A stretch of DNA of 64,000 nucleotides from assembly GCF_051903065.1 (NCBI RefSeq), contig NZ_CP178438.1; one strand, given 5' to 3'. Every line of letters starts with the position of its first letter. Positions within the stretch are counted from its first letter, which is position 1. Shown here in pieces: positions 1 through 54,754 of this stretch. The notes beneath the pieces are model-generated. The model saw only the letters and a program-made list of their open reading frames with translations, made no database searches and was not told the DNA's origin. The stretch is from Escherichia coli (GTDB taxonomy: Bacteria; Pseudomonadota; Gammaproteobacteria; Enterobacterales; Enterobacteriaceae). Position numbers and translations under genes: made by a program.

Positions 1-638
1 AAAGAAAGCTTCCAACTTTTAGCCCAATGATGGATAGCATAACAATCTTTTGTTATATATCTATAAAGTAATTGTGATCGTTTGGCACTACCATAAGGGT
101 TATATGGATAAAAATATTTATCAGAGTATATTGTGATATCTTTAATAGTAGAAATATCTTGTGAATCTATTTTTTTTACACCATGTAAGTCCAAAATATT
201 TTTTAAAAGAAAAGGAATTGTTTGCATACCATTTGCTTTTATGACAGCTGCTTTTAGCTCTTGGAAAAGCCAAAATTTGGGTTCACAACCCAAAATACCA
301 CAACTAGGCGTATCAATATCTTCTTCGCCGATAAATGCAATATTTTTTCGCAATGCAGAAATATCCCGTACTAATTCCATATCAGTATCGAGATATATAC
401 CACCAAAACGATATAATACATCACATCGGATCAAATCTGCAGCAAATGCAAACTTTTTCCTTTGGATCATTTCTTCAACAAAATCATTCTGACCAAATTC
501 CTTTCTATAAGAATCCTCATTCCATAAATAGCAATCGTAATTTACAGCATGTTCTTTCCACGACTCCATACAATCTAAATATATTTTAGGGATTTCACTT
601 TTACCAAGCCAAATATAATGAATTATTGCTGGTATCAT
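1..638 (-). CDS. Glycosyltransferase (DXD sugar-transferase-like), 3-prime end truncated by window edge; O-antigen cluster
   Basis: Manual minus-strand translation from ATG at 636-638 (MIPAIIHYIWLGKSEIPKIY...GGIYLDTDMEL...) appears open to the window start; ATGA start/stop overlap with the upstream gene; low GC. Not in the ORF track, presumably because no stop lies in the window. Confidence 0.5.
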   Translation of the reverse strand, partial: MIPAIIHYIWLGKSEIPKIYLDCMESWKEHAVNYDCYLWNEDSYRKEFGQNDFVEEMIQRKKFAFAADLIRCDVLYRFGGIYLDTDMELVRDISALRKNIAFIGEEDIDTPSCGILGCEPKFWLFQELKAAVIKANGMQTIPFLLKNILDLHGVKKIDSQDISTIKDITIYSDKYFYPYNPYGSAKRSQLLYRYITKDCYAIHHWAKSWKLS

Positions 639-1501
639 AACGATTTTCCTTTAACTTTATTCTTGATTTTTACAAGAAAAAGACATGTAATAAATAAAAC
701 GAAAACAGTAAATTTTGTCTTTTTCTTTACAACTATTAGATTACTAATATTAAAAATGGGAATAAAATGAAAAACGGTTTGTTTAATGACATTAATACCA
801 AGACCTTTTAGATTCAAGTTATTGATAACAAAAGCCATCGTGCCATTGATGTTTTTCCGCAAAAGATCAGTATAATTAGAAGTTAAACCTCCTGGTAAAT
901 ATTCACTATAATAGATGATCTCATTGAAATATTTAAAGTAGCCATTTTCTAAAATTGAATTCCAAACCAATGCCTCAGTTATAAAATTTTCACCATCAAA
1001 AACAGGAAATTGATTTTTAAGTAAAGAATCACGTTTTATGATTAATGCTTTATCTCCCTTTGTACCTGCAAACTTTTCCAGAGAAATATTTTCAATTGTT
1101 TCCGCTTTACCTACAATCTCTTTTGTAGTTTTATACCCCCTCAGGAAAACCATCCCTTTACATTTATCATCAACAATTGCCTGGATTTTTTCATTGGCTA
1201 GAGCAATAGCGTTGGGCGTTAATATATCATCACTATCAACAATAAATATCCAGTTAAACGACGAAATTTCTATCCCTATATTTAAGGCTGTGTGTTTTCC
1301 ACCGTTCTTCTTATATCTATATATGATTTTAAATGGGGATGTCGACGCTATTTTGTCAATAACCTCTTTTAAATTATCAGTAGAACCATCATCAATTATC
1401 ACCCATTCAAAATCATAAGATTGTTGTGACATTAAGGATTCATATAATTCATAGACTAACAAAGCTCGATTGAATACAGGAGTAATTACTGAAATTGACA
1501 T
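635..1501 (-). CDS. Family 2 glycosyltransferase (O-antigen cluster)
   Basis: 288-aa ORF; N-terminal ITPVFNRA...VIIDDGSTD and later DSDD motif typical of GT-A/GT2 enzymes; low GC; overlaps neighbours as in an operon. Confidence 0.75.
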   Translation of the reverse strand: MSISVITPVFNRALLVYELYESLMSQQSYDFEWVIIDDGSTDNLKEVIDKIASTSPFKIIYRYKKNGGKHTALNIGIEISSFNWIFIVDSDDILTPNAIALANEKIQAIVDDKCKGMVFLRGYKTTKEIVGKAETIENISLEKFAGTKGDKALIIKRDSLLKNQFPVFDGENFITEALVWNSILENGYFKYFNEIIYYSEYLPGGLTSNYTDLLRKNINGTMAFVINNLNLKGLGINVIKQTVFHFIPIFNISNLIVVKKKTKFTVFVLFITCLFLVKIKNKVKGKSL

Positions 1502-2793
1502 CTAACCCTTCCAAAATCATTAATCAAACGCCATGGGAAAATAATATACTTCAAACTCTGTAATTGCATTTTAAACATATTTTTAGTTTTTGGTATAAAT
1601 ATAAAAATCAAAAAGTTAGCAATAAAATAAGAAAGCAATGATACAGAAGCAGCGCCAACCGCTCCATATTTTGGTATAACAATGATATTCAAAGTTATAT
1701 TCAAAATTGCAGCAATAATGGTTTTTATCACTTCTAAATTAATATAATTCTTACTAAATAACCATTTAGATGAAAATGATCCTAAAAAAACAAAAACACC
1801 ACTCCACATATGAACCATTAATACTTGCGCCGATAAATCCATATTATCGCCATATAGTATTTTTATAATTATAGGTGACAGAGCAATCATAATAATTGCA
1901 CCATATATAGAGATTACACTTACAACTCCGCATATCCATTTCAAAAAGATAAATGATTCTTCCTCTCCTATTTTTTCAAGCTGAACAATTTTTGGAAAAA
2001 AAGCGTTCGCTATCAAACCTCCACACATAAACCAGATGGCTGATAACCTAAGAGCTGCACTAAATGCCCCAGCCTCTTTTGTACCTGTAAGAGACTCTAA
2101 TAAGATAACATCACACTGTGTAAATAGTGATACACTAATAGTTGATACAATGAGTTTACTCCCCATAAAAAAATACATTTTGACTAATTCTAAATCAATC
2201 GTCCATTTTGCTGAATAAGGGAAATAGAATTTGTATATAGTAAAACTAAAAAGAGCTTGAATTAAATAAAAGAAAACATAAGCATAAAAGACATACCAAC
2301 CAAAATATATACAACACCAAAGATAACCATATGAAACGGCCACACTACTTAGAATTGTGATAGCACGATATTTTGATTCAACCAATGCCGAATAATGAAA
2401 AAATATTACTTTAGCATACAAGCTAAAAAAATTAGCAACGATTAATATCGCCACGAATATAAAAGCGAACGGTATATCATAGTAAAAATAAATAACAATG
2501 GTAATAAAAGCAGATGCATATAATAACAGTCCTAAAAACTGTAAGAATAATGCACATCCAATCTCAGTGCCCGTTGATGATGGATTTTCAACAATTCTTT
2601 TAACTACGACTATATCAATGCCAAATAAAAATAACGATAGTAATATTTGTGAGATATTCATTATCGTTGCCCAACTACCCAAGATATCTAACCCATAGAT
2701 TCTTTTGATAGAAGCAAAAAGTGACAGCTGAAATACCAGCATGAACACTCGGTCACTCAACAACCAAAATAGGTTACTTAAGTATTTTTTCAC
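1486..2793 (-). CDS. wzx: O-antigen flippase Wzx (polysaccharide transporter family)
   Basis: 435-aa highly hydrophobic multi-span protein in an O-antigen operon; size and composition typical of Wzx. Confidence 0.7.
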   Translation of the reverse strand: MKKYLSNLFWLLSDRVFMLVFQLSLFASIKRIYGLDILGSWATIMNISQILLSLFLFGIDIVVVKRIVENPSSTGTEIGCALFLQFLGLLLYASAFITIVIYFYYDIPFAFIFVAILIVANFFSLYAKVIFFHYSALVESKYRAITILSSVAVSYGYLWCCIYFGWYVFYAYVFFYLIQALFSFTIYKFYFPYSAKWTIDLELVKMYFFMGSKLIVSTISVSLFTQCDVILLESLTGTKEAGAFSAALRLSAIWFMCGGLIANAFFPKIVQLEKIGEEESFIFLKWICGVVSVISIYGAIIMIALSPIIIKILYGDNMDLSAQVLMVHMWSGVFVFLGSFSSKWLFSKNYINLEVIKTIIAAILNITLNIIVIPKYGAVGAASVSLLSYFIANFLIFIFIPKTKNMFKMQLQSLKYIIFPWRLINDFGRVRCQFQ

Positions 2794-2796
2794 GTG

Positions 2797-4023
2797 CTAG
2801 TTACCTTCATTGATATAGTTAACACCTTTATCAATTGCCTCCAATATATAATCAATCATACCATACACACCCTCAGTAAATGGATGATTATTTAGGAAAG
2901 TAAACATGTTATTCCCTAAAGACACATTATACATTAAATACAAAAAAGGCACTAAATTTACTACATATAAACAAATAAGTAGGGCATATTTACTCCTACC
3001 TTTTCTCTCAAAAGCTTTTAGATAAGGTAAAATAAAGTAGGGATAAAAACCAAAAATAATCATACCCAATCTATTCGAAAGTGCTGGGAAAGGTAATAAT
3101 ATTAAGAATAGAAAACACTCCTTACAAAATAAAATCTTATTAAAATCATCACATTTACTTCTCTTCCCTATCATTATAATAAAGCATATATTTACGACTG
3201 TAATGATAATATAATTTAACGGCAAACGTGTGAATTTATCGTTCCCAGAAACTGAAGTGAATTTCGATAATAGCACAGAATAAATTGGCGTATTATAAAC
3301 CACAAAAAACACAACTAAAAGTCCAATAAGAATAGAAAAAACAATTTTTGCATATGAGTATTTTTTTGAACCAAAGATCATATAAACTGCATATATAAAA
3401 ACATTAACAACTGCAGACATGTGAAAAAAAACACTCAATAAAAAAAAGATATATTTTTTAAATGAACGCTCATTTATAGCATACAGAAAAACAACCACAG
3501 ATAAAACCTGTCGAAGAAAATATGATGTAACTTCTATAAATCCTAAGTTAAAAAAGAAAAGCGATAATAAAAAAAGTTTATATTTTTTTTCAACATCTTT
3601 AAGAATCTTGGATAAAAAAAAGACGATCAGAAAATAAGTAGAAAGTAAAAATACTTCATCATTGCCATCTGAAATATACCCAATAAATTTCATGATGGCT
3701 AAAAACATAAATTCCAGCCCATCACCAAATCTTGAATAGCCAAAAACATCAATTAAATTATAATTTAACTCATGGTAAACATGAAGATACTCTGCAATAT
3801 CTCCAAATGGTTTTAGTGTGGAAAAAAAAATAATAATAAACACCAATAGTGCATAAAAATAAAAATTACGCAATACTGGGTGTAACAATGGCGAGAGGGC
3901 ACCAATAAATATCAATACAACAAGAGGGTAAAAGAATGTTGCCAATAATAACAAAGGAATAAAATATACAACACAGTTATTATTTGACAATGAATTTTCA
4001 TTGCTGTTTTTATAAATATTCAT
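2797..4023 (-). CDS. wzy: O-antigen polymerase Wzy (polytopic membrane protein)
   Basis: 408-aa very hydrophobic, very AT-rich ORF between wzx and a glycosyltransferase; assignment by context and composition only. Confidence 0.55.
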   Translation of the reverse strand: MNIYKNSNENSLSNNNCVVYFIPLLLLATFFYPLVVLIFIGALSPLLHPVLRNFYFYALLVFIIIFFSTLKPFGDIAEYLHVYHELNYNLIDVFGYSRFGDGLEFMFLAIMKFIGYISDGNDEVFLLSTYFLIVFFLSKILKDVEKKYKLFLLSLFFFNLGFIEVTSYFLRQVLSVVVFLYAINERSFKKYIFFLLSVFFHMSAVVNVFIYAVYMIFGSKKYSYAKIVFSILIGLLVVFFVVYNTPIYSVLLSKFTSVSGNDKFTRLPLNYIIITVVNICFIIMIGKRSKCDDFNKILFCKECFLFLILLPFPALSNRLGMIIFGFYPYFILPYLKAFERKGRSKYALLICLYVVNLVPFLYLMYNVSLGNNMFTFLNNHPFTEGVYGMIDYILEAIDKGVNYINEGN

Positions 4024-4825
4024 ATCGGGAATATCCTTTTAGCAGAATAAATAATGCAGCTATTTTTTTAATTCTGCCGCATTTTTTTTTAAAAAGAAAT
4101 TTTTTCACCCAGAATATGAAGATATATAGTAACCCTAAATATCTACCACCACAGCGTACAAAAATAGCACTTCTATCAGATAGGGCATCTGTTTCATTAT
4201 AAATTTTTTTACCAGAACTTTCTATTGGATGCACAGTAATTGTGACAGGTATAAAAATAATATTATTTTTTGTTTTCATAAGATCCGTAACAAAAATCGG
4301 TTCTTCACCCGCTTTATATCTAGCCCCCAATCCGAAACACTCATCAAACCAAACATTACATTCCTGTATTTGATTCACATTAAGGCACATTTCTATTGAA
4401 GAAATGTTAAATGCTGACAATCTATTTAGCCTTTTCCTCATTAGCGGATATTTTTTCCTTAGTCTTCCGTCTTGCGTACAACTTTGAATTTGATAATGAT
4501 ACTTGCCTCTATCTTCGATTATTCTATCTTTTAGTTCATAAAGTCCATTAACAAGGTAAGCGACATCATCATCACTTATAATCATATAATCAACGCTTTT
4601 TTGAAATGCAGTAGCCAATAAAATGTTTCTGCTTTTACTTAACCCTTTACAGTATGTCGTTATTATTATTACATTGTTTTTCTTACAAATATCCCCATAT
4701 TGTTTTTGCTTATCAGTCACTTGATGTGAAATTATTATTAAAAATTCATCTGGTATATTTTTTATTTTTTCCCAAACCTGATTTATTCCATTATTTAATG
4801 TTGATATACCTATAGCTATTTTCAT
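4010..4825 (-). CDS. Glycosyltransferase, first gene of the O-antigen operon
   Basis: 271-aa ORF with DDD-containing GT-A-like N-terminal half; immediately downstream (in transcription sense) of the JUMPstart/ops element. Confidence 0.6.
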   Translation of the reverse strand: MKIAIGISTLNNGINQVWEKIKNIPDEFLIIISHQVTDKQKQYGDICKKNNVIIITTYCKGLSKSRNILLATAFQKSVDYMIISDDDVAYLVNGLYELKDRIIEDRGKYHYQIQSCTQDGRLRKKYPLMRKRLNRLSAFNISSIEMCLNVNQIQECNVWFDECFGLGARYKAGEEPIFVTDLMKTKNNIIFIPVTITVHPIESSGKKIYNETDALSDRSAIFVRCGGRYLGLLYIFIFWVKKFLFKKKCGRIKKIAALFILLKGYSRYEYL

Positions 4826-32780: not shown

Positions 32781-33806
32781 ATGAAAGTATCAACTCTTGG
32801 TATCGACCTGGCAAAGAACGTTTTTCAGCTTCATGGTGTCGATCATGAAGGCCATACTATTTTGCGTAAAAAGCTCACCCGGGCTAAGTTTGTTCAGTTT
32901 GTGATTCAACTGGAACCTTGTCTGATTGGCATGGAAGCCTGCTCATCCAGTCATTATTTTGCGCGATTATTCACCCGCTATGGTCATGAGGTAAAACTCA
33001 TACCTCCGCAGTATGTGAAGCCTTATGTGAAAACGAACAAGACGGATGCAGCAGATGCTGAAGCAATCTGCGAAGCGGTAACCCGTCCGAATATGCGTTT
33101 TGTTCAGATAAAAAACGAAGAGCAGCAGGCCGTTTTAGCGTTACACACTGAACGGGGAATACTTATCCGTGAGCGGATTGCCTGTGCCAATAGTTTAAGA
33201 GCCACACTTGCTGAGTTTGGTATTACGATTGCGGCCGGACAAAGCCATTTAACCCGTGAGCTGCCAGCCATTCTGGAGGATAGCGAAAATGGTTTATCTC
33301 CCTTTGTCAGAACCAGCATCTACAGACAGTCTAAACATATCCGGGAACTTGAAGAACAAGTTAAACAGGTAGAAGAAGCTCTGGCCTCCTGGTATAGAAC
33401 GCAGGAAGCCTGCCAGAGAATGGCCAAAATCCCGGGGGTTGGCATGCTAACGGCCACTTATGTGGTAGCAGCAGTGGGTAATGCCCGACAATTCAGTACC
33501 GCAAAGCAGTTCGCTTCATGGCTGGGGCTGACACCAAAGGAACATTCCAGCGGCGGGAAACAGCAACTGGGAGGGATCAGCAAACGTGGAGATGGATATT
33601 TCCGATACCTGCTGGTTCACGGCGCACGCGCACTTACCGCCTGGGTCAACCGAAACGGCGCGGTTGAGGAGAATTCCTGGCTTCAGGGACTCCTTGAGCG
33701 GAAGCACTACAATGTAGCTGTTGTCGCCATGGCGGCAAAAACAGCGAGGATCATGTGGTCAATGTTGTCACACAATACTGAATATCAACCTCGGCAGCTC
33801 GCCTGA
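32781..33806 (+). CDS. IS110-family transposase/recombinase (DEDD N-terminal domain plus Transposase_20 C-terminal domain)
   Basis: 341-aa ORF: N-terminal MKVSTLGIDLAKNVFQLHGVD and C-terminal IPGVGMLTA...GLTPKEHSSGGKQQLGGISKRGDGYFR motifs characteristic of IS110-family recombinases. Confidence 0.85.
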   Translation: MKVSTLGIDLAKNVFQLHGVDHEGHTILRKKLTRAKFVQFVIQLEPCLIGMEACSSSHYFARLFTRYGHEVKLIPPQYVKPYVKTNKTDAADAEAICEAVTRPNMRFVQIKNEEQQAVLALHTERGILIRERIACANSLRATLAEFGITIAAGQSHLTRELPAILEDSENGLSPFVRTSIYRQSKHIRELEEQVKQVEEALASWYRTQEACQRMAKIPGVGMLTATYVVAAVGNARQFSTAKQFASWLGLTPKEHSSGGKQQLGGISKRGDGYFRYLLVHGARALTAWVNRNGAVEENSWLQGLLERKHYNVAVVAMAAKTARIMWSMLSHNTEYQPRQLA

Positions 33807-43634: not shown

Positions 43635-45584
43635 TCAGCAGCGGCTTAAATCTGCCTGCGCCTGAGCCAGTTTTTCTGCCGCCTGACGTAACGGTTCCAT
43701 CAACGGCATGGTCCGTGCTGGAGCATGAAGGCGGAATCGCTGCAACTCTGTCGCGCCGACAGTCAACGCCGATTCCAGCCGATGTCGTTTGGCGGCCATT
43801 TTCGCCATTACCGCTTGTCTTTCTGCAGGCGTTACCGCTTCGTTCGGCCTGAACACAAAACGGCGTTCACAGCTCGCTTTCCAGTCGATGACCGCCTGGG
43901 TCAGATGATCACCAAACCCTTTAACTTGCTTAACCCCACGACGGGTAACATCCGCGGCTGTTTCAATACCAAAAGACCGTAACGCCGCTTTACGCGCAGG
44001 GCCAACGCCGGGAATAGAGGCAGCATCAATAAAAAATCCCTCCAGAAACTTCTGCTTCTGCCGTTCCCTTGCAGTGTCGTGAAGTGCTGCCAGAGCACGT
44101 TTTTCTTCTTCCGGTAACCCGAGAATTTCGTCCTTCATTTTTTCGAGCATCGTCCGTTTGGCGATAAAACCTTCCAGCCCGCCCAACTGTTGGATCTGGT
44201 TGACTAAATGGTCATAGTCCATTTTCGCGCGATTAAATGCCTCACGGCGTTGCTGGATTTCTGCTTTATAAGCTTTGCTTGTCAGACTGCCAATAATCCA
44301 GATAGCCGCCAGCACAGGAACCAAAATAATATAACGCGGTTCTGCCTGAAGGCCGCAAAGCAACAGCGATAACGCTGACAGTGCGATCTCAATCAGAATG
44401 ATGTATTCGCGCCGTAACAGGCCTAAAGGAAGCGGCCTGCCAGTCGGTTGGAAATGATCGGGTAATGGCAATTGCAATGCTGGCGGTGCTACTGACGCCA
44501 TCACCATCGCCCAGACTTTCGCCAGCACAAAATCACCGCCGGTGGTAATGACCTCTTCACCGAGATCAATAAAATAGATAACGCCTTGATTATCCAGCGT
44601 ACACCACGGGCAGTCAGTCAAATGAGCGGGGTAAACATGCATTGCTGAAACGGTACATTTCTTTAACTGTTGGCGTAGAGAGTCCAGTGCCGCTACCCAC
44701 GCTTTAGCCGTCGGACGCCCCGTTGCCACGCCACTTTCCGTGAATGCCTGCTGAAACATGGCTTCAACATCGCCCGGTAACATCGACAGCGGAATAGATC
44801 GTGGCGGCGGTTTTAAACCACGCCGCTGATTATCTGACGCGTAGGCATAACGGAAATGGGCAATATCCGTCTCCAGCGCATTACCCGCATCAGAGATAAG
44901 CGGCACACCAGAATAAGGATGCCGCCCACCAAACAAGACGTGAAAAATCAGCAACGCAAGGCCAAAATTATCGTGATTTTCTGTGCGTTCAAAACCGACA
45001 AATGATGGCAAGGTTTGTAGCTCTGGCGGCGTAAAATGCGACACGCCAACTTCGCATAAATGCAACGTTCCATTGGCGTTAATCTGAAAGGAGTCGCTGT
45101 CGATCAACACCACTTTGCTGTCGCGACCTACCATAAAGCTGTTCTGGTTTACGTCACCCACGACGTGCCCGTGCTCGTGAACCGTAGCAAAAGATGAAGC
45201 AATATTACGCGCAACATAGAGTAGAAAATCCCACGCACAATGAGGGTAACTCTGGCGACGATGTGCCGGGCTATAGATCATATGAATCGGTTCTTTACCA
45301 GAAACTTTTGGCATCATAAAACCGATAACTTTTCCGCCTCGTCCACCGTGAAGCGTTGCCTGCGGCCAGGCGACATAATTCAGCAACTGTGCATCAGCTG
45401 TCGCAGCCATAAAGGCAAGTTTGTCCTGTTTTAAGGCGGGTGGCGGCGTGTGATAAATCTTAGCGACGCTATCGACAAACTCCTCGATATCATAAACCGC
45501 GCCTTCGCCACCTTTGCCCAGTTCACGGCCTGGCGTAACGCACTCACCAGTAGCAGTATATAAAGTGGGTTTCATGGTAACCAC
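43635..45584 (-). CDS. yegI: Atypical Ser/Thr protein kinase YegI (kinase-like N-terminus, TM segment, C-terminal helix-hairpin-helix region)
   Basis: 649-aa ORF; lysine-containing kinase-like N-terminal motifs; membrane segment; overlaps the downstream phosphatase gene start. Confidence 0.85.
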   Translation of the reverse strand: MVTMKPTLYTATGECVTPGRELGKGGEGAVYDIEEFVDSVAKIYHTPPPALKQDKLAFMAATADAQLLNYVAWPQATLHGGRGGKVIGFMMPKVSGKEPIHMIYSPAHRRQSYPHCAWDFLLYVARNIASSFATVHEHGHVVGDVNQNSFMVGRDSKVVLIDSDSFQINANGTLHLCEVGVSHFTPPELQTLPSFVGFERTENHDNFGLALLIFHVLFGGRHPYSGVPLISDAGNALETDIAHFRYAYASDNQRRGLKPPPRSIPLSMLPGDVEAMFQQAFTESGVATGRPTAKAWVAALDSLRQQLKKCTVSAMHVYPAHLTDCPWCTLDNQGVIYFIDLGEEVITTGGDFVLAKVWAMVMASVAPPALQLPLPDHFQPTGRPLPLGLLRREYIILIEIALSALSLLLCGLQAEPRYIILVPVLAAIWIIGSLTSKAYKAEIQQRREAFNRAKMDYDHLVNQIQQLGGLEGFIAKRTMLEKMKDEILGLPEEEKRALAALHDTARERQKQKFLEGFFIDAASIPGVGPARKAALRSFGIETAADVTRRGVKQVKGFGDHLTQAVIDWKASCERRFVFRPNEAVTPAERQAVMAKMAAKRHRLESALTVGATELQRFRLHAPARTMPLMEPLRQAAEKLAQAQADLSRC

Positions 45585-46333
45585 AGCGCCAGTGCCAACG
45601 TTTTATCATCATCGGTACGCTCGTTTACCGCCGGGCTGGACAAAAACTGCTTTAACAATTCAGGTAATAAATCGAGCTGTTCCTGCGTTGCTGCCGCCAG
45701 TCCATTGAAAAAAGGGGTAAAGAAAGGCACATGCGGAGAATTATCCAACATATTTAACGCCAGTCGCTGGATACCATCCGTAAATGCTGCAACTTTATGC
45801 ACACGCTCAGTGCTGGTGAAAGTTTCCAGTCTGGAAACAGCATCTTCATCGCTAATGAAATGCGTCATATTGGCATATTCACCCACCATCGGCGTGAGCG
45901 GCAGTTCCAGACCACGACCAAAATCCACCACTACACCGCCGTCGCCAATTTGCATAATCAATGTGCCGTTAGCCGATGAAATCAATCCCAGAAACGTGCA
46001 GGCAAAATCGCGAACTGCTAATGCTTTGGCTTCTGCCTCGGCAAAAAGTCGTTGACGAATGGTCAGTACCATATTTGTGGCGAGGACATCATTAAGCCCC
46101 AATTCACCGTCCTGTACTTTTTGCACCATAAACGCCATCGCTTCATTGACGGCGAGCTTCGCGCCTTCTCCTCCCTGCGAAACGCTACCTGCGCCATCAG
46201 CAAGGAACATCACCAGTAATGGCTGCTGGTCATTTAGCCAGGCAACCTGCATCTGGCAGGCATCCTGACAAGGTAAATCAGCGCTAATGTGCGACGTTCC
46301 AACAGCGGATGCATAAACCAGACGCCAGCTCAC
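45572..46333 (-). CDS. pphC: PP2C-family protein phosphatase PphC (YegK)
   Basis: 253-aa ORF (…[20 protein letters not shown]…) consistent with an atypical PP2C fold; operonic with yegI and yegL. Confidence 0.8.
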
Positions 46334-47499: not shown

Positions 47500-47620
47500 A
47501 GGAGTGAGGGTTGAGCGGGGTTTCCCCCGCCCTGGTAGTCTTAGTAAGCTGGCCAGCTAATGACTAAGAGCACCACGATGATGAGTAGCTTCATCATGAC
47601 CCTTTTCTTATTAAAGGATG
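47500..47620 (+). ncRNA. sibB: SibB antisense sRNA, apparently lacking its native 3-prime hairpin
   Basis: ttgaca / catact promoter-like elements at about 47471-47497; homology with the sibA copy stops near 47618. Confidence 0.45.
47541..47597 (-). CDS. ibsB: Type I toxin IbsB-like (18 aa hydrophobic peptide)
   Basis: Minus-strand translation gives MMKLLIIVVLLVISWPAY; paralogous to ibsA. Confidence 0.75.
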   Translation of the reverse strand: MMKLLIIVVLLVISWPAY

Positions 47621-47763
47621 ACAAAATAATACAAATCACTTAAAAATCATCGCATTACACGAATTTGCGGTTAAATAATAGACTACAAAGTGCGACAAAA
47701 CGCAACATATGCAGTCACTATGAATCAACTACTTAGATAGTACTAGTGACCTGTAACAGAGCA

Positions 47764-47805
47764 TTAGCGCAAGGTGATTTTTTGTCCTCTTGCGCTAATT
47801 TTTTG
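47764..47805 (+). terminator. Rho-independent terminator-like hairpin
   Basis: Perfect 10-bp stem ttagcgcaag / cttgcgctaa with a 15-nt loop, followed by tttttt. Confidence 0.35.
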
Positions 47806-47961
47806 TCATCAAACATGTCGTTCTCCAGAGAAGCATAAAGCCTTGCAATCAAGTGCAAAGCTTTGTGTACCAGAGTTTTTCCTCATCAACTACCACAAGT
47901 ATCGATCGATTGAGACTTGGATGATAGACTTCATGCCTTTCAGAACTCATTGATTACATAA

Positions 47962-48324
47962 ATGTTAAAGCTATTTGCAAAGTACACCTCGATTGGTGTG
48001 CTGAACACACTTATACACTGGGTGGTTTTTGGTGTATGTATCTATGCCGCGCATACCAATCAGGCTCTGGCAAACTTCTCAGGTTTCGTTGTGGCTGTGA
48101 GCTTTAGCTTCTTCGCGAATGCAAAATTCACATTCAAAGCATCGACTACAACGATGCGCTACATGTTATATGTCGGGTTCATGGGAACACTGAGTGCTAC
48201 TGTTGGATGGGCTGCTGATAAGTGCTCGCTTCCTCCAATTATCACTCTTATCACCTTCTCCGCCATCAGCCTGGTGTGCGGTTTCGTCTATTCAAAGTTC
48301 ATTGTCTTTAGGGATGCGAAATGA
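47962..48324 (+). CDS. gtrA: Bactoprenol-linked glucose translocase GtrA
   Basis: 120-aa small 4-TM protein of the GtrA family; start codon of the next gene overlaps its stop. Confidence 0.85.
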
Positions 48325-49241
48325 AAATATCTCTGATTGTTCCTGTCTTCAATGAAGAAGATGCGATACCAATTTTCTATAAAACGGTACGTGAATTCGA
48401 AGAGTTGAAGCCTTATGACGTCGAAATTGTATTCATAAATGACGGAAGCAAAGACGCCACGGAATCAATTATTAACGTTCTGGCTGTTTCAGATCCGCTA
48501 GTTGTTCCGCTGTCATTTACACGAAACTTTGGTAAAGAACCAGCATTGTTTGCAGGGTTAGACCATGCAACGGGCGATGCTGTTATTCCTATTGATGTTG
48601 ACCTGCAAGACCCGATTGAGGTTATTCCTCATCTGATTGAAAAGTGGCAGGCAGGTGCCGATATGGTGCTGGCAAAACGTTCAGATCGTTCAACTGATGG
48701 AAGATTAAAACGGAAAACCGCTGAGTGGTTCTATAAGCTTCACAATAAAATAAGCAATCCAAAGATTGAAGAGAATGTCGGCGATTTCCGCCTGATGTCT
48801 CGAGAGGTGGTAGAAAATATCAAACTACTGCCAGAGCGTAACCTGTTTATGAAAGGCGTTTTATCTTGGGTTGGCGGTAAGACGGATGTTGTTGAATACA
48901 TCCGTGCTGAACGCGTTGCCGGAAGCACAAAATTCAATGGCTGGAAGCTATGGAACCTGGCGCTTGAGGGAATTACAAGTTTCTCGACCTTCCCCTTACG
49001 CGTGTGGACTTACATCGGCCTACTTGTTGCGGGACTCTCGTTCCTTTACGGGGTGTGGATGATTTTCGACACATTGGTGTTCGGTAATGCTGTCCGCGGA
49101 TATCCTTCTATTCTTGTATCTATTCTCTTTTTAGGTGGCATTCAGTTAATTGGTATTGGGGTGCTGGGAGAATACATCGGCAGAATTTACGTAGAAGTTA
49201 AAAATCGTCCTAGATATGTACTTAAAAAAATAAAAGGTTAG
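48321..49241 (+). CDS. gtrB: Bactoprenol glucosyltransferase GtrB (GT2)
   Basis: 306-aa ORF with GT2 N-terminus ([11 protein letters not shown]...FINDGSKD) and two C-terminal TM segments. Confidence 0.9.
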
Positions 49242-49246
49242 AGAAT

Positions 49247-50623
49247 ATGCGCATTTCAAAAAATGAAAAATACCTTTCATTGATTATGATAGCATTTTAC
49301 TTGCCATTTTTATTATCTGATTTACCTTTTAGGGACGATCTAAGCAGGACTTATTGGGGTTTTGTTGGGTTGTCTCAATTAGGTAGACCATTGGCAGACA
49401 TTGTTTATAGTTTGGTTGGATTTGGCTATGAGGGTGTTAACCTCAGCCCTATGCCTAAAATTATAGCGCTATTAATAATATTATCGTCTGCGATATTTTC
49501 ATACAGAACGCTATTCAACTCAATAGGAGCAACCGGGTTACTCTCTTTATCTATTTTCTTTGCAAATCCATTTATTATTCAAAATTTTGCATATCAGTAC
49601 GACTGTTTTCCAATGGCTTTATCTATTTTATTGGCGACATTATCTGTATTATATAGACCAAGATCAAGCTATTTTTATTTTCTTAGCGCATCATTTTTAT
49701 TAACTAGCGCAATATCACTTTATCAAGCATCTATATTTATTGCGGCATCTTTATATTTATGTAAGATCACTATTTATTTCGTTAACGATAGAAATCGCAG
49801 AGATGTTTTTATAGAATGCATGCTTACTCTTTTGTCTTCTTTTTTCTCTATTGCATGTTACATGGTGATTTTACTTTTTGTAGAAAATGGCGTGTCAAAA
49901 CGAGCTAGCATTACAGGGCCAAGTGGCGTTATTAGCAATATCGAGTTCCTTTTGGATAGGTTAAATAGCCTTTACCACTCGGTTTATATTTTTTTTATTA
50001 TTTTGTCATTAGTATTAATATTCTCTCTCTTGAGGATTTTTATCCTAAAAAGATATATCAATTTATGCGTGATATTACTAATACTTGTTGCGCTGCTAGT
50101 CTCTTCCCTACTCCCATCTGTCATCCTTAAGGAAGGGTTCGCCGGACCAAGAGTTTTAATGTCTATTTGTTCGGTATTTATATTTATATCTATCATTGCA
50201 ACCGGAAAAGAAAAATACGTATACGCCATGGTGTTATCTGTTTTAATGATGCATTCCATGTCTATTTCATACGCATTTTCAGGTGACATTAAGGCACAAT
50301 ACGATAGATACTCGATGATATCATCTCTTGTTTATAAAGATATTGATAATTACGTGTCGTCAAATACAGCAAAAATATACATTTCTTGCAAATCAACCCC
50401 ATCACAAAGAGAGTACGTTTTCTATAAATTCAACAATCACATAGCATGGCTCAACCCAGAAGAGGCTTGGGCTATCAGGTTTTTCATAAGAAATAATGGC
50501 GAGAGCAGGGTGGTGCACTCATGGGATGAATGCTTTGATATAAATGGAGGTAAGATCGTTAAAGAAAATGCATTTTATAAAATGGTTGAAAATAAAAATT
50601 CTTACTATTTCATAATGAAATAA
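49247..50623 (+). CDS. Serotype-specific O-antigen glucosyltransferase (GtrC-type polytopic membrane protein)
   Basis: 458-aa very AT-rich, highly hydrophobic ORF immediately after gtrAB; family call is by context and composition. Confidence 0.6.
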   Translation: MRISKNEKYLSLIMIAFYLPFLLSDLPFRDDLSRTYWGFVGLSQLGRPLADIVYSLVGFGYEGVNLSPMPKIIALLIILSSAIFSYRTLFNSIGATGLLSLSIFFANPFIIQNFAYQYDCFPMALSILLATLSVLYRPRSSYFYFLSASFLLTSAISLYQASIFIAASLYLCKITIYFVNDRNRRDVFIECMLTLLSSFFSIACYMVILLFVENGVSKRASITGPSGVISNIEFLLDRLNSLYHSVYIFFIILSLVLIFSLLRIFILKRYINLCVILLILVALLVSSLLPSVILKEGFAGPRVLMSICSVFIFISIIATGKEKYVYAMVLSVLMMHSMSISYAFSGDIKAQYDRYSMISSLVYKDIDNYVSSNTAKIYISCKSTPSQREYVFYKFNNHIAWLNPEEAWAIRFFIRNNGESRVVHSWDECFDINGGKIVKENAFYKMVENKNSYYFIMK

Positions 50624-50629
50624 ATATAG

Positions 50630-50663
50630 GCGGGGGGGGGGGTAACAATCCCCCGTCTTTTTT
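50630..50663 (+). terminator. Rho-independent terminator after the gtr operon
   Basis: G-run (11 G) pairing with ccccc across a taacaat loop, followed by tctttttt, 7 bp after the gtrC stop. Confidence 0.5.
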
Positions 50664-50849
50664 GCTACGGCAAGTGATTAATCGCAACAATTGATTATTA
50701 TTTATAACAAATGCGTCATCTACCGCTATTCGGGTGACATTTTCATTCCTTATCTAAAATACAATTAAATAATTAACAAATAATTAAACGAATTGCATGA
50801 AAAATACATTACCGAAAAGTTAGAATAGTGTGCGATTGAAAGTTAATAA

Positions 50850-53381
50850 CTATATAACGGATAGCGTTCTTATGTCATTGCTAGCTGGTGATGCCATAAC
50901 TATCTGTGTTACGTTAGCGCCAGACACCGTATACGTCAGAATTACGTTACCAACGGCTCCTATATTAAAGTTTTGTTTAGCTCCTGAGGTACCTATAGCT
51001 CTGGCATTCGTTAAAGTATACGTGCTTCCCGCAGTGAATCCTGTAGCAATTACAAATTGTTGACCAACTTTAAAAGGAACTGTCATTGTTGCGGATGTTG
51101 ACTCGACAGTAGCAAACGGCAGGCCAGGCTGTTTAACCCCCGTCACATCCCAGAACTCACAGTTACGCACCAATGCTCGACCAATTAAATCGCGAGTTAC
51201 AGGGAATGTTGTCTGGTCCTGTGATAAGAATGCTCCAACAATTTGCACGTTATCGAGCGTAATATCGTGTACTGTGGCCCCATCTATAGGACTTAACGTT
51301 GGTGATGCACTCCATAATTTACCACCCTTCATTTTGATACTTACAGGCCCGTTAGGGTCTGTCCCTCTAAAAGCGCGAATACTCTCAAATTTGCAATCTG
51401 TAAATTCATAGCTGCCGCGTTGGTTAGTTTCGAACAATGTATACGCCTCACCTGACACTCCGTGTCTTACATCACTGGCAACAACGCGCGGATTATGGCG
51501 GAATGATGCAGACGTGACAGAGAAAAATGGCGCGCAGACATCGTTAATAAGAATGTCTGTTGTATAACGCCCTGTAACAGCGCTCTCAGAGTCACTCATA
51601 TCCGAATATAGCGCTTTGAAGCGGGAGAAGTCTATGTTTAGACCTATTCCTGCACTTTTTGGTAATTGTCCAAAATCAAGCCCGTCAATAACAATTTTCT
51701 TAGGGAAATAAAGGGTGTTATCTCGAGCTACAGTTATTAATGTACCCGGATAAGTCAAGACGAAACCTGGATACATTTTAACATCTTTCAAGGTAACATT
51801 ATTGAATAACGTGGGGCTTATAGGCGACCCGCTACTAGGCCCTTGCCCAGCAGTAACAGCTGCGTTTATGATACCATTTCCGGGTGCGCCGCTGCGCAGG
51901 CCAGTTAACTTAATATTCTCCATGTATAAATCACCATCGAAGCCCCCCCCCAGCGTCAGAGCGAGTCGAAATAATATTACCAGGCTTATATGGTGAAGCA
52001 TTAAATATTGAATTGGTTACATACAAATCCCCGATACCAGAAGCGACGACACCATAAGTCCCAATATTACAGTCATTTATCTTTAAGTAGTTTTGGAAAG
52101 GTCTGTGGAAATCAATTCGACTAAGATCGCATCTTTCAAACCTTATATTGGCGCAATTATTGCTGCCTGTTGCCCCCCAGCCTTTACCATTTGCCGTTGC
52201 GTTTTTGATAGTGACATCCATAGAGTTAGATAGGGTTAAGGCGTATGCGTAGCTATCAACACCATCTATTAAGGCGTTTGCTATGGCTGGCGTGTATAAA
52301 CCATCAACTGTAACATCATAGCTTTCGTTAATTTCTATCCTGATATCATTAAAGTTTTGCGTTATCGGTCTGTTAATAAATGTCGTATTAACCAAGCGAA
52401 CTCGTGATGCTTGATTAATATAAATAATTCGATAATTCTTTGTAAGACTTTCGTCTATAGTCAATCCCTTAAGGTCTGCACATCTTTGCGTATTTTAAGT
52501 GCTTTAATTGATGTTGCGTTAGTTCCTAGGGCGTACTTAAGCGGGTTTTCAATGTATCCACGGTTATATACCCTGTTGAAATCTACGCGAGTTTGATTAA
52601 CGCCATCGAAAATAAACATAGGTTGAGATGTCGATAACTGAATGAAGCAACCGTCAAGGTCGGTATTAGAAGCCAAACCATCAAGATAGTTGCTACCTAT
52701 GTCGCGAGAGCCACTGGTGGACGTATTAACTCCATTAACTGGAGCCGAACCAGAACCGTATGTAACAGGGGCGACAGGCTGGCTAATAACAATTTGCCCT
52801 TTCCATGTAGCCGATGGTTTAAGCACACACCCGGTTAAATCCACATTTAAACTTTTAATATCAAGATAAGTATCACCATCTAGTAGAAAAGTTCCGTCAG
52901 ATTGCCTAACGTCTAAATTATTTGAATAAGCATAGTTCAGTGCCTTAGCTATGGCGGGAGCGTCATTTGTTACTCCATCACCAATAGCGCCAAACTCCTT
53001 CAACGTTACCCAGTATTTTACTTTCTCCAAGCTCTTTTGATATTGATCTGGGTCGTACTTCAGCACATTAGGAAAATAGAACTGCTGCGCACCATATGCA
53101 TCATAAACAGCCATAGAGTGGCCTTGCACAGTTACGAACTTGGCAATCTGTCCGTTATATACCGGATATCCAGCAGCGTTAATGATGATTGGTTGTGAAA
53201 CAGGAACGTGAGAACCATCCTCATTCTCCACATAAATCTGAATCTGGTTTTCAGGATTTACCGGGTCAGTGTCAATTTTTCCTATATAAATTTTGCCATT
53301 GGCAACCGCTTTAAAAGAACGTGCCATAGTGAAGAGTTGCGAAGGCATGCTTACCACAACATTTGCGGTGATATCTGTCAT
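50850..53381 (-). pseudogene. P22-like phage tailspike gene disrupted by at least two frameshifts
   Basis: Three consecutive minus-strand ORFs (52461-53381, 51931-52464, 50850-52001). The first begins [43 protein letters not shown], recognised from memory as the P22 gp9 head-binding domain; the others are beta-helix-like. One frame junction sits on a 9-nt homopolymer. Confidence 0.75.
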
Positions 53382-53505
53382 TTAATTTGCTCCAGATTCA
53401 AGGAATCGCCGCAGCATGGCTACGGTGAATTTTGTGCATAAAAAACCCAGCCGAAGCTGGGTCGTTGCGTTGGTTATCTGTAAGTAGTTATGTGCTTAGG
53501 TAATT

Positions 53506-54706
53506 TGTATTAGCTCAGACCTGATCTGACAGTTACCGGTTATTTATACAGGTATCTGTCAGATTACATCCGGCTTAAATTTTTCTCGGCCCAGATGCGC
53601 TTTCCATCAAGTAACGTTTCCATTGGCGTCCGCCCATTGCGCATTTTTCCCTGATGGGTTCGTTCATTATTATAGTGAGCCAGCCACTCATCAAGATCCG
53701 ATTGCAATGTATCGAGAGCTCCATACAACTTTTTACGGAACGTCACCTGATAAAATTCGTTCAGTATCGTCTTATGGAACCGCTCGCAGATGCCATTTGT
53801 CTGCGGTGACATCGCTTTAGTTTTCGTGTGGTCTATATCATTTATTGCCAGATATAGCTGGTAGTCATGCTGTTCCACCTTACCGCAGTACTCTGTTCCT
53901 CTGTCGGTCAGTATTCTCAGCATTGGCAGGTTTTGCGATTCGTAAAATGGCAACACACGATCATTCAGCAGGTCAGCAGCCGTGATCGGTGTTTTGGTTA
54001 CATACAGTTTACAGTGTGCGACCTTCGAGTAGGTGTCAACGAACGTTTGCTGATAAATGCGTCCGACTCCTTTCAGATTACCCACGTAGAACGTATCCTG
54101 AGAGCCCAGATAACCGGGATGTGCGGTTTCGATTTCACCACACGCTTCGTCATCGCTGGCTTTACGCTCCAGAACGACTATCTGTGCTTCTGTCAGCTCG
54201 ATACCGTCACGGGCTACTTTTTCCTCCAGTGCTTTCAGCCGCTTTTTGAAGTTCTCAAGGTTATGCCGCAGCCAGACAGAACGTACACCCCTTCCTGAGA
54301 TGAAGACACCTTGCTTACGTAGCTCATTGCTGGTCCGGTGCTGGCCATGCGCAGGGTACGCGATGGCATAATCAACAACGGCCCGCTCAGTTGCATCATC
54401 GGTACGATTTTTTAGATTGGGCGTTCGTCGAGTGCGGTTAATCAGTGCATCCACCCCACCTTCATCAGCCAGTTCGCGATAACGGTAAAACGTATCACGC
54501 GAGACGCCCATGATTTTGCAGGCCTTCGAAACATTGCGGAGTTCTTCAGCCAGATTGAGCAAACCGGCTTTGTGTTTGATGACGGGATTGTTAGTATGAA
54601 GCATGAGAGTTACCTCGTGTTTTGTATAAGGATTCGACACCCATATCAAAACCGGTAACTCTCAACCTTTCAAGGCTCAGTGTCAGATCAAGTCGCGACT
54701 AATACA
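53506..54706 (-). mobile_element. IS481-like insertion sequence (about 1.2 kb) with imperfect terminal inverted repeats
   Basis: Ends tgtattagctcagacctgatctgacagttaccggtt (53506-53541) and aaccggtaact...gtcagatcaagtcgcgactaataca (54650-54706) are inverted repeats with a 20-bp insertion in the right copy; encloses one transposase gene. Confidence 0.6.
53564..54604 (-). CDS. DDE transposase (integrase-core/rve domain with N-terminal HTH), IS481-family-like
   Basis: Track ORF is 361 aa from a TTG; likely ATG start at 54604 (MLHTNNPVIKHK..., 346 aa); HTH-like N-terminus and integrase-core-like central region. Confidence 0.75.
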   Translation of the reverse strand: MLHTNNPVIKHKAGLLNLAEELRNVSKACKIMGVSRDTFYRYRELADEGGVDALINRTRRTPNLKNRTDDATERAVVDYAIAYPAHGQHRTSNELRKQGVFISGRGVRSVWLRHNLENFKKRLKALEEKVARDGIELTEAQIVVLERKASDDEACGEIETAHPGYLGSQDTFYVGNLKGVGRIYQQTFVDTYSKVAHCKLYVTKTPITAADLLNDRVLPFYESQNLPMLRILTDRGTEYCGKVEQHDYQLYLAINDIDHTKTKAMSPQTNGICERFHKTILNEFYQVTFRKKLYGALDTLQSDLDEWLAHYNNERTHQGKMRNGRTPMETLLDGKRIWAEKNLSRM

Positions 54707-54754
54707 TGTACCCGTCATTCAGACGATTCCCGACAGTGTTTCATAATTCCTCCA

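What the first reader, a model, noticed from the sequence alone, without database searches (positions are those of the whole stretch)
52464..52494. Second frameshift separating the tailspike head-binding domain from its beta-helix
The ORF encoding the P22-like N-terminal domain ends at 52461 and the next frame is open only from about 52494, so a 1-nt indel must lie in this 30-bp window, which has no long homopolymer. Two independent frameshifts suggest genuine decay of the tailspike, in contrast to the intact gtrABC genes beside it.
Basis: seen in the sequence. Interest (0 to 1): 0.3.

Follow-up and report, generated by a model that had tools for sequence, protein, structure and literature searches.

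The report
One-base deletion in dead tailspike gene
A phage tailspike gene stranded in an E. coli chromosome has lost one base at codon 304, which breaks its reading frame inside the enzyme domain; this is ordinary decay of a prophage leftover, and the neighbouring sugar-modification genes are still whole.

Summary
The tailspike lies on the minus strand (53381 to 50850). Its first ORF stops at TGA 52463-52461. The next frame is closed by TAA 52497-52495, so it is open from 52494. An intact 843-aa homologue (E. coli BL12 prophage, 84% nt identity) places one missing base between C52473 and T52472, in codon 304.

Repairing this base and removing one G from the G9 run (51951-51943) restores an 843-codon ORF. 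It aligns without gaps to the intact protein at 87% identity. The same deletion is in three directly aligned assemblies from Ecuador, China and Switzerland, so it is inherited rather than a sequencing error. The poly-G length varies among them (G8, G9, G10).

The title is wrong on position. The head-binding domain is only residues 1-113. The break is 190 residues further in, within a beta-strand of a beta-helix homologous to the Klebsiella phage K64-ORF41 capsule lyase. All three conserved catalytic residues fall in the middle ORF.

No other phage gene remains: the island holds gtrABC, the tailspike and an IS481-family element, inserted between ibsB and mdtA. There is no slippery site. The finding is an ordinary, recent pseudogene, of low interest.

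The parts
52472..52473 (-). Site of the 1-nt deletion (codon 304 of the tailspike). One base is missing between C52473 and T52472.
   Evidence: Alignment to the intact BL12 gene and to three near-identical E. coli copies; frame analysis.
52461..52463 (-). Premature TGA stop of ORF1, three codons after the deletion.
52495..52497 (-). TAA that closes the ORF2 frame upstream. It sets the upper bound of the interval in which the shift must lie.
50850..53381 (-). Whole tailspike pseudogene, 2532 nt. It is the same length as the intact gene because the -1 and +1 lesions cancel in length.
53043..53381 (-). P22-type head-binding domain, residues 1-113 (PF09008).
   Evidence: Pfam E=1.9e-67; PDB matches to the Sf6 and P22 tailspike N-termini.
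51943..51951 (-). Second lesion: a G9 run on the sense strand (C9 on the + strand). It is one G longer than the in-frame G8 of strain ECNB21-M121, and strain 33F4 has G10.
51931..52464 (-). Middle ORF fragment (codons 305-480). It carries the conserved lyase residues Y380, H426 and R474.
47962..50623 (+). Intact gtrA (47962-48324), gtrB (48321-49241) and gtrC (49247-50623).
   Evidence: Full-length Pfam matches PF04138, PF00535 and PF14264. They are annotated as intact in the near-identical genomes.
53506..54707 (-). IS481-family element (transposase 53564-54649) that forms the right-hand junction of the island with the mdtA upstream DNA. The end coordinates are approximate.
   Evidence: Pfam HTH_29, rve and rve_3; RefSeq annotation in relatives; imperfect inverted repeats of about 26 bp read; homology limits.
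47613..54705 (.). The inserted island (about 7.1 kb). It replaces 143 bp of K-12-type sequence between sibB/ibsB and mdtA.
   Evidence: blastn against K-12 and against the BL12 prophage; K-12 annotation.

Best explanation
This is an ordinary inactivating mutation: a single-base deletion in codon 304 of a P22-type tailspike gene. The gene survives only as part of a roughly 7-kb prophage remnant (gtrA-gtrB-gtrC, tailspike, IS481-family element) between ibsB and mdtA in an E. coli chromosome.

The deletion shifts the frame inside a beta-strand of the beta-helix receptor-binding domain, and translation stops three codons later. That domain is homologous to the K64-ORF41 polysaccharide lyase.

The most likely history (inferred) has four steps. 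(1) A P22-like prophage carrying gtrABC next to its tailspike sat at this site. (2) A deletion associated with the IS removed everything from gene 16 onward, including the integrase. (3) With no virion to attach to, the tailspike was released from selection and acquired the deletion, which every known copy of the island shares. (4) Later the G8 run slipped to G9 or G10 in some lineages. The gtrABC genes stayed intact, presumably because O-antigen glucosylation still benefits the host.
For: Shown:
- The deletion is placed to the base by alignment with an intact homologue.
- The repaired gene gives a gapless 843-aa match at 87% identity.
- At least 15 clusters of intact single-ORF 843-aa homologues exist. 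The motif [12 protein letters not shown], which spans the break, is almost fully conserved in an 11-sequence alignment reaching down to 44% identity: Q302 and G306-L313 are invariant, T303 and K305 are at least 90% conserved, and position 304 is I or V.
- The same deletion is in assemblies from three countries, while the poly-G length varies among them.
- The head-binding domain is residues 1-113 only.
- Residues 123-707 align continuously to PDB 8X8M (E=1e-40). The three published catalytic residues align to Y380, H426 and R474, all in the middle ORF.
- The AlphaFold model is confident from residue 121 onward, puts residues 302-305 in a strand, and matches 8x8m_A with TM 0.75/0.82.
- The island holds no other phage genes and is bounded by an IS481-family element.
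- dN/dS against BL12 is 0.10, so inactivation is recent relative to the divergence of the two alleles.
- Among four near-identical copies the tailspike has 7 SNPs (5 nonsynonymous, 2 synonymous) against 1 in gtrABC over a similar length (Fisher p=0.035).
- Other E. coli carry fragments of the same gene next to insertion sequences, in remnants that also keep an O-antigen-modification-type gene.
Against: - No raw reads were available for this window, so the base call rests on agreement with other assemblies.
- Those assemblies represent only three independent sources (two Ecuadorian strains, one Chinese strain, three Swiss farm isolates).
- The order of events and the role of the IS in the deletion are inferred, not shown.
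- The SNP excess in the tailspike rests on 8 SNPs in all.
- No intact allele more than 90% identical was found, so the exact ancestral codon 304 (ATT, or less likely CTT) cannot be known.
- Differences in poly-G length between assemblies could partly be homopolymer sequencing error.
Confidence: 0.92

Rival explanations
1. Sequencing or assembly error: the gene is really intact at this position.
For: Single-base indels are a common assembly artefact. The other lesion, the poly-G run, does vary between assemblies, as homopolymer errors would.
Against: The site is not a homopolymer; the longest run is 3 nt. The identical deletion is in three directly aligned assemblies from Ecuador, China and Switzerland, and three more records have matching BLAST length and score. 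RefSeq annotation of those genomes also splits the gene at this point.
Confidence: 0.03
2. Programmed -1 ribosomal frameshift, or translational coupling through the overlapping TTGA, so that a full or two-part tailspike is still made.
For: ORF1's TGA overlaps a TTG in the next frame and is preceded by AAGGGA. A hairpin begins about 50 nt downstream of the stop, and the 101-nt stretch that contains it folds with z=-2.09.
Against: There is no X XXY YYZ slippery heptamer in the 34-nt overlap, in any frame. All full-length homologues are in a single frame here. The Shine-Dalgarno-like AAGGGA abuts the TTG with no spacing. A second frameshift lies downstream in this window. No virion genes remain. 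The break falls within a beta-strand, so two separate pieces are unlikely to fold.
Confidence: 0.02
3. The 306-aa ORF1 product (a complete head-binding domain plus the start of the helix) is retained as a functional protein, for example a decoy that blocks tailspike attachment in superinfecting P22-like phages.
For: ORF1 is intact in all copies, with only one nonsynonymous and one synonymous SNP. From background knowledge, the isolated P22 head-binding domain folds as a stable trimer (PDB 1LKT, which matches residues 6-109 of the intact BL12 homologue).
Against: The late promoter and the antiterminator are gone. A terminator-like hairpin (minus strand, about 53466-53440) lies between the IS and the start codon. 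The low SNP count is not statistically distinguishable from that of the rest of the pseudogene. The stop position is simply what the deletion dictates.
Confidence: 0.03

Closest known systems
P22, Sf6 and HK620-type tailspikes (gene 9 / gp14): head-binding domain PF09008 joined to an exchangeable beta-helix receptor-binding domain
   Same: The N-terminal 113 residues match PF09008 over its full length (E=1.9e-67) and match Sf6 gp14 and P22 gp9 in the PDB. The nucleotide sequence is 87-91% identical to the tailspike 5' ends of Sf6, HK620 and CUS-3. The gene sits next to gtrABC, as in serotype-converting P22-like prophages.
   Different: The receptor-binding domain is unrelated in sequence to the P22, Sf6 or HK620 enzymes. 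The gene is broken by two indels, and it lies in a remnant with no virion genes.
Klebsiella phage SH-KP152410 K64-ORF41 capsule depolymerase (PDB 8X8M), a beta-elimination polysaccharide lyase
   Same: Residues 123-707 align at E=1e-40. The model superposes with TM 0.75/0.82 and rmsd 3.4 A. The published catalytic Tyr528, His574 and Arg628 (PMC11652154) align to Y380, H426 and R474, which are invariant in the family alignment.
   Different: Identity is only about 21-30%. The N-terminal adaptor is different (Autographiviridae type rather than P22 head-binding). The substrate is unknown, and the copy here cannot be translated as one chain.
Intact tailspike of the E. coli BL12 argW prophage (WP_259482333.1, 843 aa)
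   Same: Same length and architecture. It is 84% identical in nucleotides and 87% in amino acids with no gaps, and it has gtrA and gtrB beside it at 98.5% nucleotide identity.
   Different: It is intact and lies in a complete P22-like prophage with an integrase at argW. Its gtrC allele is different.
Cryptic prophage remnants that keep gtr or yfd O-antigen modification genes (for example CPS-53/KpLE1 yfdGHI in E. coli K-12)
   Same: gtrABC-type genes are retained while the phage structural genes are lost or decaying. Insertion sequences sit at the deletion edges.
   Different: The location is ibsB-mdtA rather than argW, and no integrase is left.

Membership tests
P22-type tailspike (head-binding domain family PF09008) | N-terminal head-binding domain of about 110 residues | tested here: met
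   PF09008 matches residues 1-113 over 113/113 profile positions, E=1.9e-67. There are PDB matches to the Sf6 and P22 N-termini.
P22-type tailspike (head-binding domain family PF09008) | Head-binding domain and receptor-binding beta-helix encoded in one uninterrupted ORF | tested here: not met
   The window has three ORFs, produced by a -1 lesion at codon 304 and a +1 lesion in the G9 run. Homologues are single ORFs. The window copy is therefore a pseudogene of this family.
P22-type tailspike (head-binding domain family PF09008) | Encoded within a phage or prophage alongside tail-hub and ejection-protein genes | tested here: not met
   Homology to the BL12 prophage stops 130 nt upstream of the start codon, at the IS481-family element. 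No gene 16, gene 10 or gene 26 homologues are present.
K64-ORF41-like beta-helix polysaccharide lyase tailspikes | Sequence homology across the beta-helix domain | tested here: met
   phmmer E=1.1e-40, residues 123-707 against chain positions 292-893 of 8x8m_A, continuous across codon 304.
K64-ORF41-like beta-helix polysaccharide lyase tailspikes | Same fold | tested here: met
   AlphaFold model with pLDDT 81.8 (residues 121-843 confident). Foldseek against 8x8m_A gives E=1e-40, TM 0.75/0.82, rmsd 3.4 A.
K64-ORF41-like beta-helix polysaccharide lyase tailspikes | Catalytic Tyr, His and Arg (Tyr528, His574, Arg628 in K64-ORF41) | tested here: met
   They align to Y380, H426 and R474, assuming a 20-residue tag offset (PDB chain 1037 aa against the native 1017 aa). 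All three are invariant in alignment A1. This holds for the conceptual translation only.
K64-ORF41-like beta-helix polysaccharide lyase tailspikes | Lyase activity on a defined polysaccharide | not testable with these tools
   This needs the repaired gene to be expressed and assayed on O38 LPS, capsule or colanic acid.
Programmed -1 ribosomal frameshift site | Slippery heptamer X XXY YYZ in the overlap of the two frames | tested here: not met
   None in any frame between 52510 and 52455.
Programmed -1 ribosomal frameshift site | The frameshift is conserved in functional homologues | tested here: not met
   All intact homologues read straight through.
Programmed -1 ribosomal frameshift site | Stimulatory RNA structure 5-9 nt downstream of the shift site | tested here: inconclusive
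   A hairpin exists but starts about 50 nt downstream of the stop. The 101-nt stretch that contains it folds at -16 kcal/mol, z=-2.09.

The most novel reading that the evidence does not exclude
The truncated 306-aa product, which holds a complete trimer-forming head-binding domain, might be expressed from the remnant and act as a decoy. It would occupy the tailspike sites on the tails of superinfecting P22-like phages and so work as a defence. A weaker alternative is that codons 301-304 mark a recurrent breakpoint in this tailspike family: an independent E. coli lineage has a gene fragment that begins exactly at nt 901, 9 nt from this deletion.
Probability: 0.03. Interest if true: 0.5.

Novelty: new member of a known kind. 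Interest (0 to 1): 0.1.

Why it matters
It matters little beyond annotation. The three ORFs at 50850-53381 should be annotated as one tailspike pseudogene with two lesions, not as a partial head-binding protein plus two hypothetical proteins.

Two points have modest wider value. First, the locus is a clean example of differential decay in a prophage remnant: the host-beneficial gtrABC genes are kept, while the now useless tailspike erodes. The shared and variable lesions also give an order of events. That domain is joined to at least three kinds of N-terminal adaptor, which could interest people who mine depolymerases.

Tried and rejected
- Sequencing error: rejected, because the deletion is shared by independent assemblies and is not in a homopolymer.
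- Programmed frameshift or translational coupling: rejected. There is no slippery heptamer, homologues are in one frame, and a second lesion lies downstream.
- [quoted passage not shown]: rejected, given the single-ORF homologues with three kinds of N-terminal module. The shorter proteins in the database are fragments that lie next to an insertion sequence or begin at a recombination junction, not natural two-gene systems.
- "The +1 in the poly-G run compensates for the -1": rejected, because a stop codon follows the deletion after three codons.
- A search for an intact allele more than 90% identical found none; the best is 88%.
- The phage collection gave matches only to the head-binding 5' end.
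- The 219-bp left junction (47613-47831) was traced to DNA that lies next to the att site of lambdoid prophages. I did not establish an attB site.
- dS for codons 304-480 was saturated, so no per-segment dN/dS could be computed there.

Full report
**Observation**

The tailspike is encoded on the minus strand, from ATG 53381 to the stop at 50850. The mechanical ORF list gives three pieces:
- 53381..52461, 306 aa
- 52464..51931, 177 aa
- 52001..50850, 383 aa

Reading the sense strand, ORF1 ends ...[11 protein letters not shown] with TGA at 52463-52461. The frame of the next ORF reads [15 protein letters not shown]..., with its upstream TAA at 52497-52495, so it is open from 52494. The longest homopolymer in 52464-52494 is 3 nt.

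**Placing the lesion**

A megablast search of complete E. coli genomes found six near-identical copies (99.8-100%). It also found three duck isolates at 84% identity in which the whole region is one annotated CDS.

In strain BL12 that CDS is 2532 nt (843 aa, WP_259482333.1). It sits in a complete P22-like prophage at argW, between the ejection-protein genes and gtrC-gtrB-gtrA-intS.

A DNA alignment shows a single gap in the window between C52473 and T52472. BL12 reads ACT ATT AAA GGG and the window reads ACC -TT AAG GGA, so one base of codon 304 is missing.

The second lesion is a G run on the sense strand at 51951-51943. Its length differs between copies:
- G9 in the window and in 23CRST027
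- G8 in ECNB21-M121, where the downstream 537-codon ORF is continuous
- G10 in 33F4

Inserting one base at the first site and removing one G at the second gives an 843-codon ORF. It aligns to BL12 without gaps, 734/843 identical. The window gene is also 2532 nt because the -1 and +1 lesions cancel in length. This does not rescue anything, since a stop follows the deletion after three codons.

**Real mutation or artefact**

The same deletion is in the three near-identical chromosomes I aligned directly: 23CRST027 from Ecuador, ECNB21-M121 from China and 33F4 from Switzerland. The other three records have the same BLAST length and score as one of these. RefSeq annotation splits the gene at the same place in those genomes.

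The site is not a homopolymer. I therefore treat the deletion as real and inherited. The poly-G length varies, so that lesion is either younger or partly a sequencing artefact.

**Where the break falls in the protein**

Pfam places the head-binding domain at residues 1-113. Residues 123-707 align continuously, across codon 304, to PDB 8X8M (E=1e-40). That entry is the K64-ORF41 capsule depolymerase of Klebsiella phage SH-KP152410, a beta-elimination lyase with catalytic Tyr528, His574 and Arg628 (PMC11652154).

The PDB chain is 20 residues longer than the native protein (1037 against 1017 aa). Allowing for that offset, the three catalytic residues align to Y380, H426 and R474. All three are invariant in an 11-sequence family alignment, and all lie in the middle ORF.

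An AlphaFold model built from a 35-sequence alignment has mean pLDDT 81.8 and is confident from residue 121 to the end. It puts residues 302-305 in a beta-strand. Its best PDB match is 8x8m_A, with TM 0.75/0.82 and rmsd 3.4 A.

The frameshift therefore does not separate the head-binding domain from the helix. It cuts a strand about 190 residues into the enzyme domain. The motif across the break, [12 protein letters not shown], is among the best conserved in the family: Q302 and G306-L313 are invariant, T303 and K305 are at least 90% conserved, and position 304 is I or V.

**Are the two halves separate genes elsewhere?**

They are not. The protein database holds at least 15 clusters of intact 843-aa proteins at 87-88% identity. 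It also holds single-ORF proteins that join the same receptor-binding domain to other N-terminal modules, including PF18668-type adaptors, Shigella phage MK-13 and Enterobacter phage fGh-Ecl02.

The shorter entries are fragments:
- DAM: an IS1 lies just upstream, and homology to the tailspike starts at nt 485.
- GCA_964290345: an IS3-type element lies just upstream, and the product starts at about residue 108.
- GCA_000713605: a 3' fossil begins exactly at nt 901 and lies behind a newer tailspike, an acyltransferase and a humD-like gene.

**Context**

Compared with K-12, the island at window 47613-54705 replaces 143 bp between sibB/ibsB and mdtA. It contains the following:
- a 219-bp stretch that resembles DNA next to the att site of lambdoid prophages
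- intact gtrA, gtrB and gtrC
- the tailspike with 130 nt of its upstream region
- an IS481-family element that abuts the mdtA upstream DNA

No integrase or virion gene remains. The strain carries an O38-family O-antigen cluster about 45 kb upstream of the island.

**Selection**

The repaired gene against BL12 gives dN/dS = 0.10. Almost all of the divergence between the two alleles therefore accumulated under purifying selection, and inactivation is recent.

Among four near-identical island copies, the tailspike carries 7 SNPs (5 nonsynonymous, 2 synonymous). gtrABC carries 1 SNP over a similar length (Fisher p=0.035). This fits relaxed constraint on the tailspike and continued constraint on gtrABC, but the counts are small.

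**Rivals**

- Programmed frameshifting. There is no X XXY YYZ heptamer in the overlap and homologues are in one frame. The only downstream hairpin begins about 50 nt beyond the stop, in a 101-nt stretch that folds with z=-2.09.
- Coupling through the TTGA overlap. The Shine-Dalgarno-like AAGGGA has no spacing from the TTG, and the break falls within a strand.
- A decoy role for ORF1. This cannot be excluded, but no promoter is evident, and a terminator-like hairpin lies between the IS and the start codon.

**Verdict**

This is a real, precisely located, inherited 1-nt deletion in a tailspike pseudogene within a prophage remnant. The stated domain boundary is wrong. Interest is low.

Noticed in passing
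window 51943-51951 (C9 on + strand, G9 on the sense strand): The other frameshift is a homopolymer whose length differs among near-identical genomes: G8 (in frame) in ECNB21-M121, G9 in the window and in 23CRST027, G10 in 33F4. The run exists because this allele has GGG GGC where BL12 has GGT TAC (Y480G). The variation is either slippage after inactivation or homopolymer sequencing error.
   Followed up: partly
window 50632-50642: A G11 run just after the gtrC stop forms the stem of a terminator-like hairpin (G-run, taacaat, CCCCC, then a T-run). The run is 7 nt longer in strain 33F4.
   Followed up: partly
window 47613-47831: The 219-bp left junction of the island matches neither K-12 nor the BL12 prophage. 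It is 80-95% similar to DNA found in about 2000 E. coli genomes, for example next to ybhB/bio at the edge of lambdoid prophages. It may be the phage side of an att junction. It contains a terminator-like hairpin at about 47762-47805.
   Followed up: partly
window 53506-54707: An IS481-family element (transposase 53564-54649, minus strand) with imperfect terminal inverted repeats of about 26 bp. Prophage DNA lies on one side and mdtA upstream DNA on the other, so it marks a rearrangement junction rather than a simple insertion. 143 bp of K-12-type sequence are missing there.
   Followed up: partly
L007 6908-7001 (E. coli GCA_000713605, argW prophage): A 3' fossil of the same tailspike begins exactly at nt 901 (codon 301), 9 nt from the window's deletion. 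It lies behind a complete newer tailspike, an acyltransferase and a humD-like gene. This is either coincidence or a preferred breakpoint at the conserved QTIKGLTIDE motif.
   Followed up: partly
L006 4263-9440 (strain DAM) and L012 4838-9710 (GCA_964290345): These are other remnants with an IS1 or an IS3-type element just upstream. Each keeps a 5'-truncated copy of this receptor-binding domain together with a 471-aa gene on the opposite strand. This suggests a recurring pattern in which the tailspike 3' end persists beside a retained cargo gene.
   Followed up: no
window 1-4825 and 45572-46333: The window starts in an O38-family O-antigen cluster (wzx, wzy), followed by the colanic acid operon. 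yegJ, which lies between yegI and pphC in K-12, is absent. An IS110-family element sits between yegH and asmA (about 32781-33806).
   Followed up: no
window 53440-53466 (minus strand): A terminator-like hairpin (cccagc ttcg gctggg followed by a T-run) lies about 60-85 nt upstream of the tailspike start codon, between the IS and the gene. It would limit read-through transcription into ORF1.
   Followed up: no
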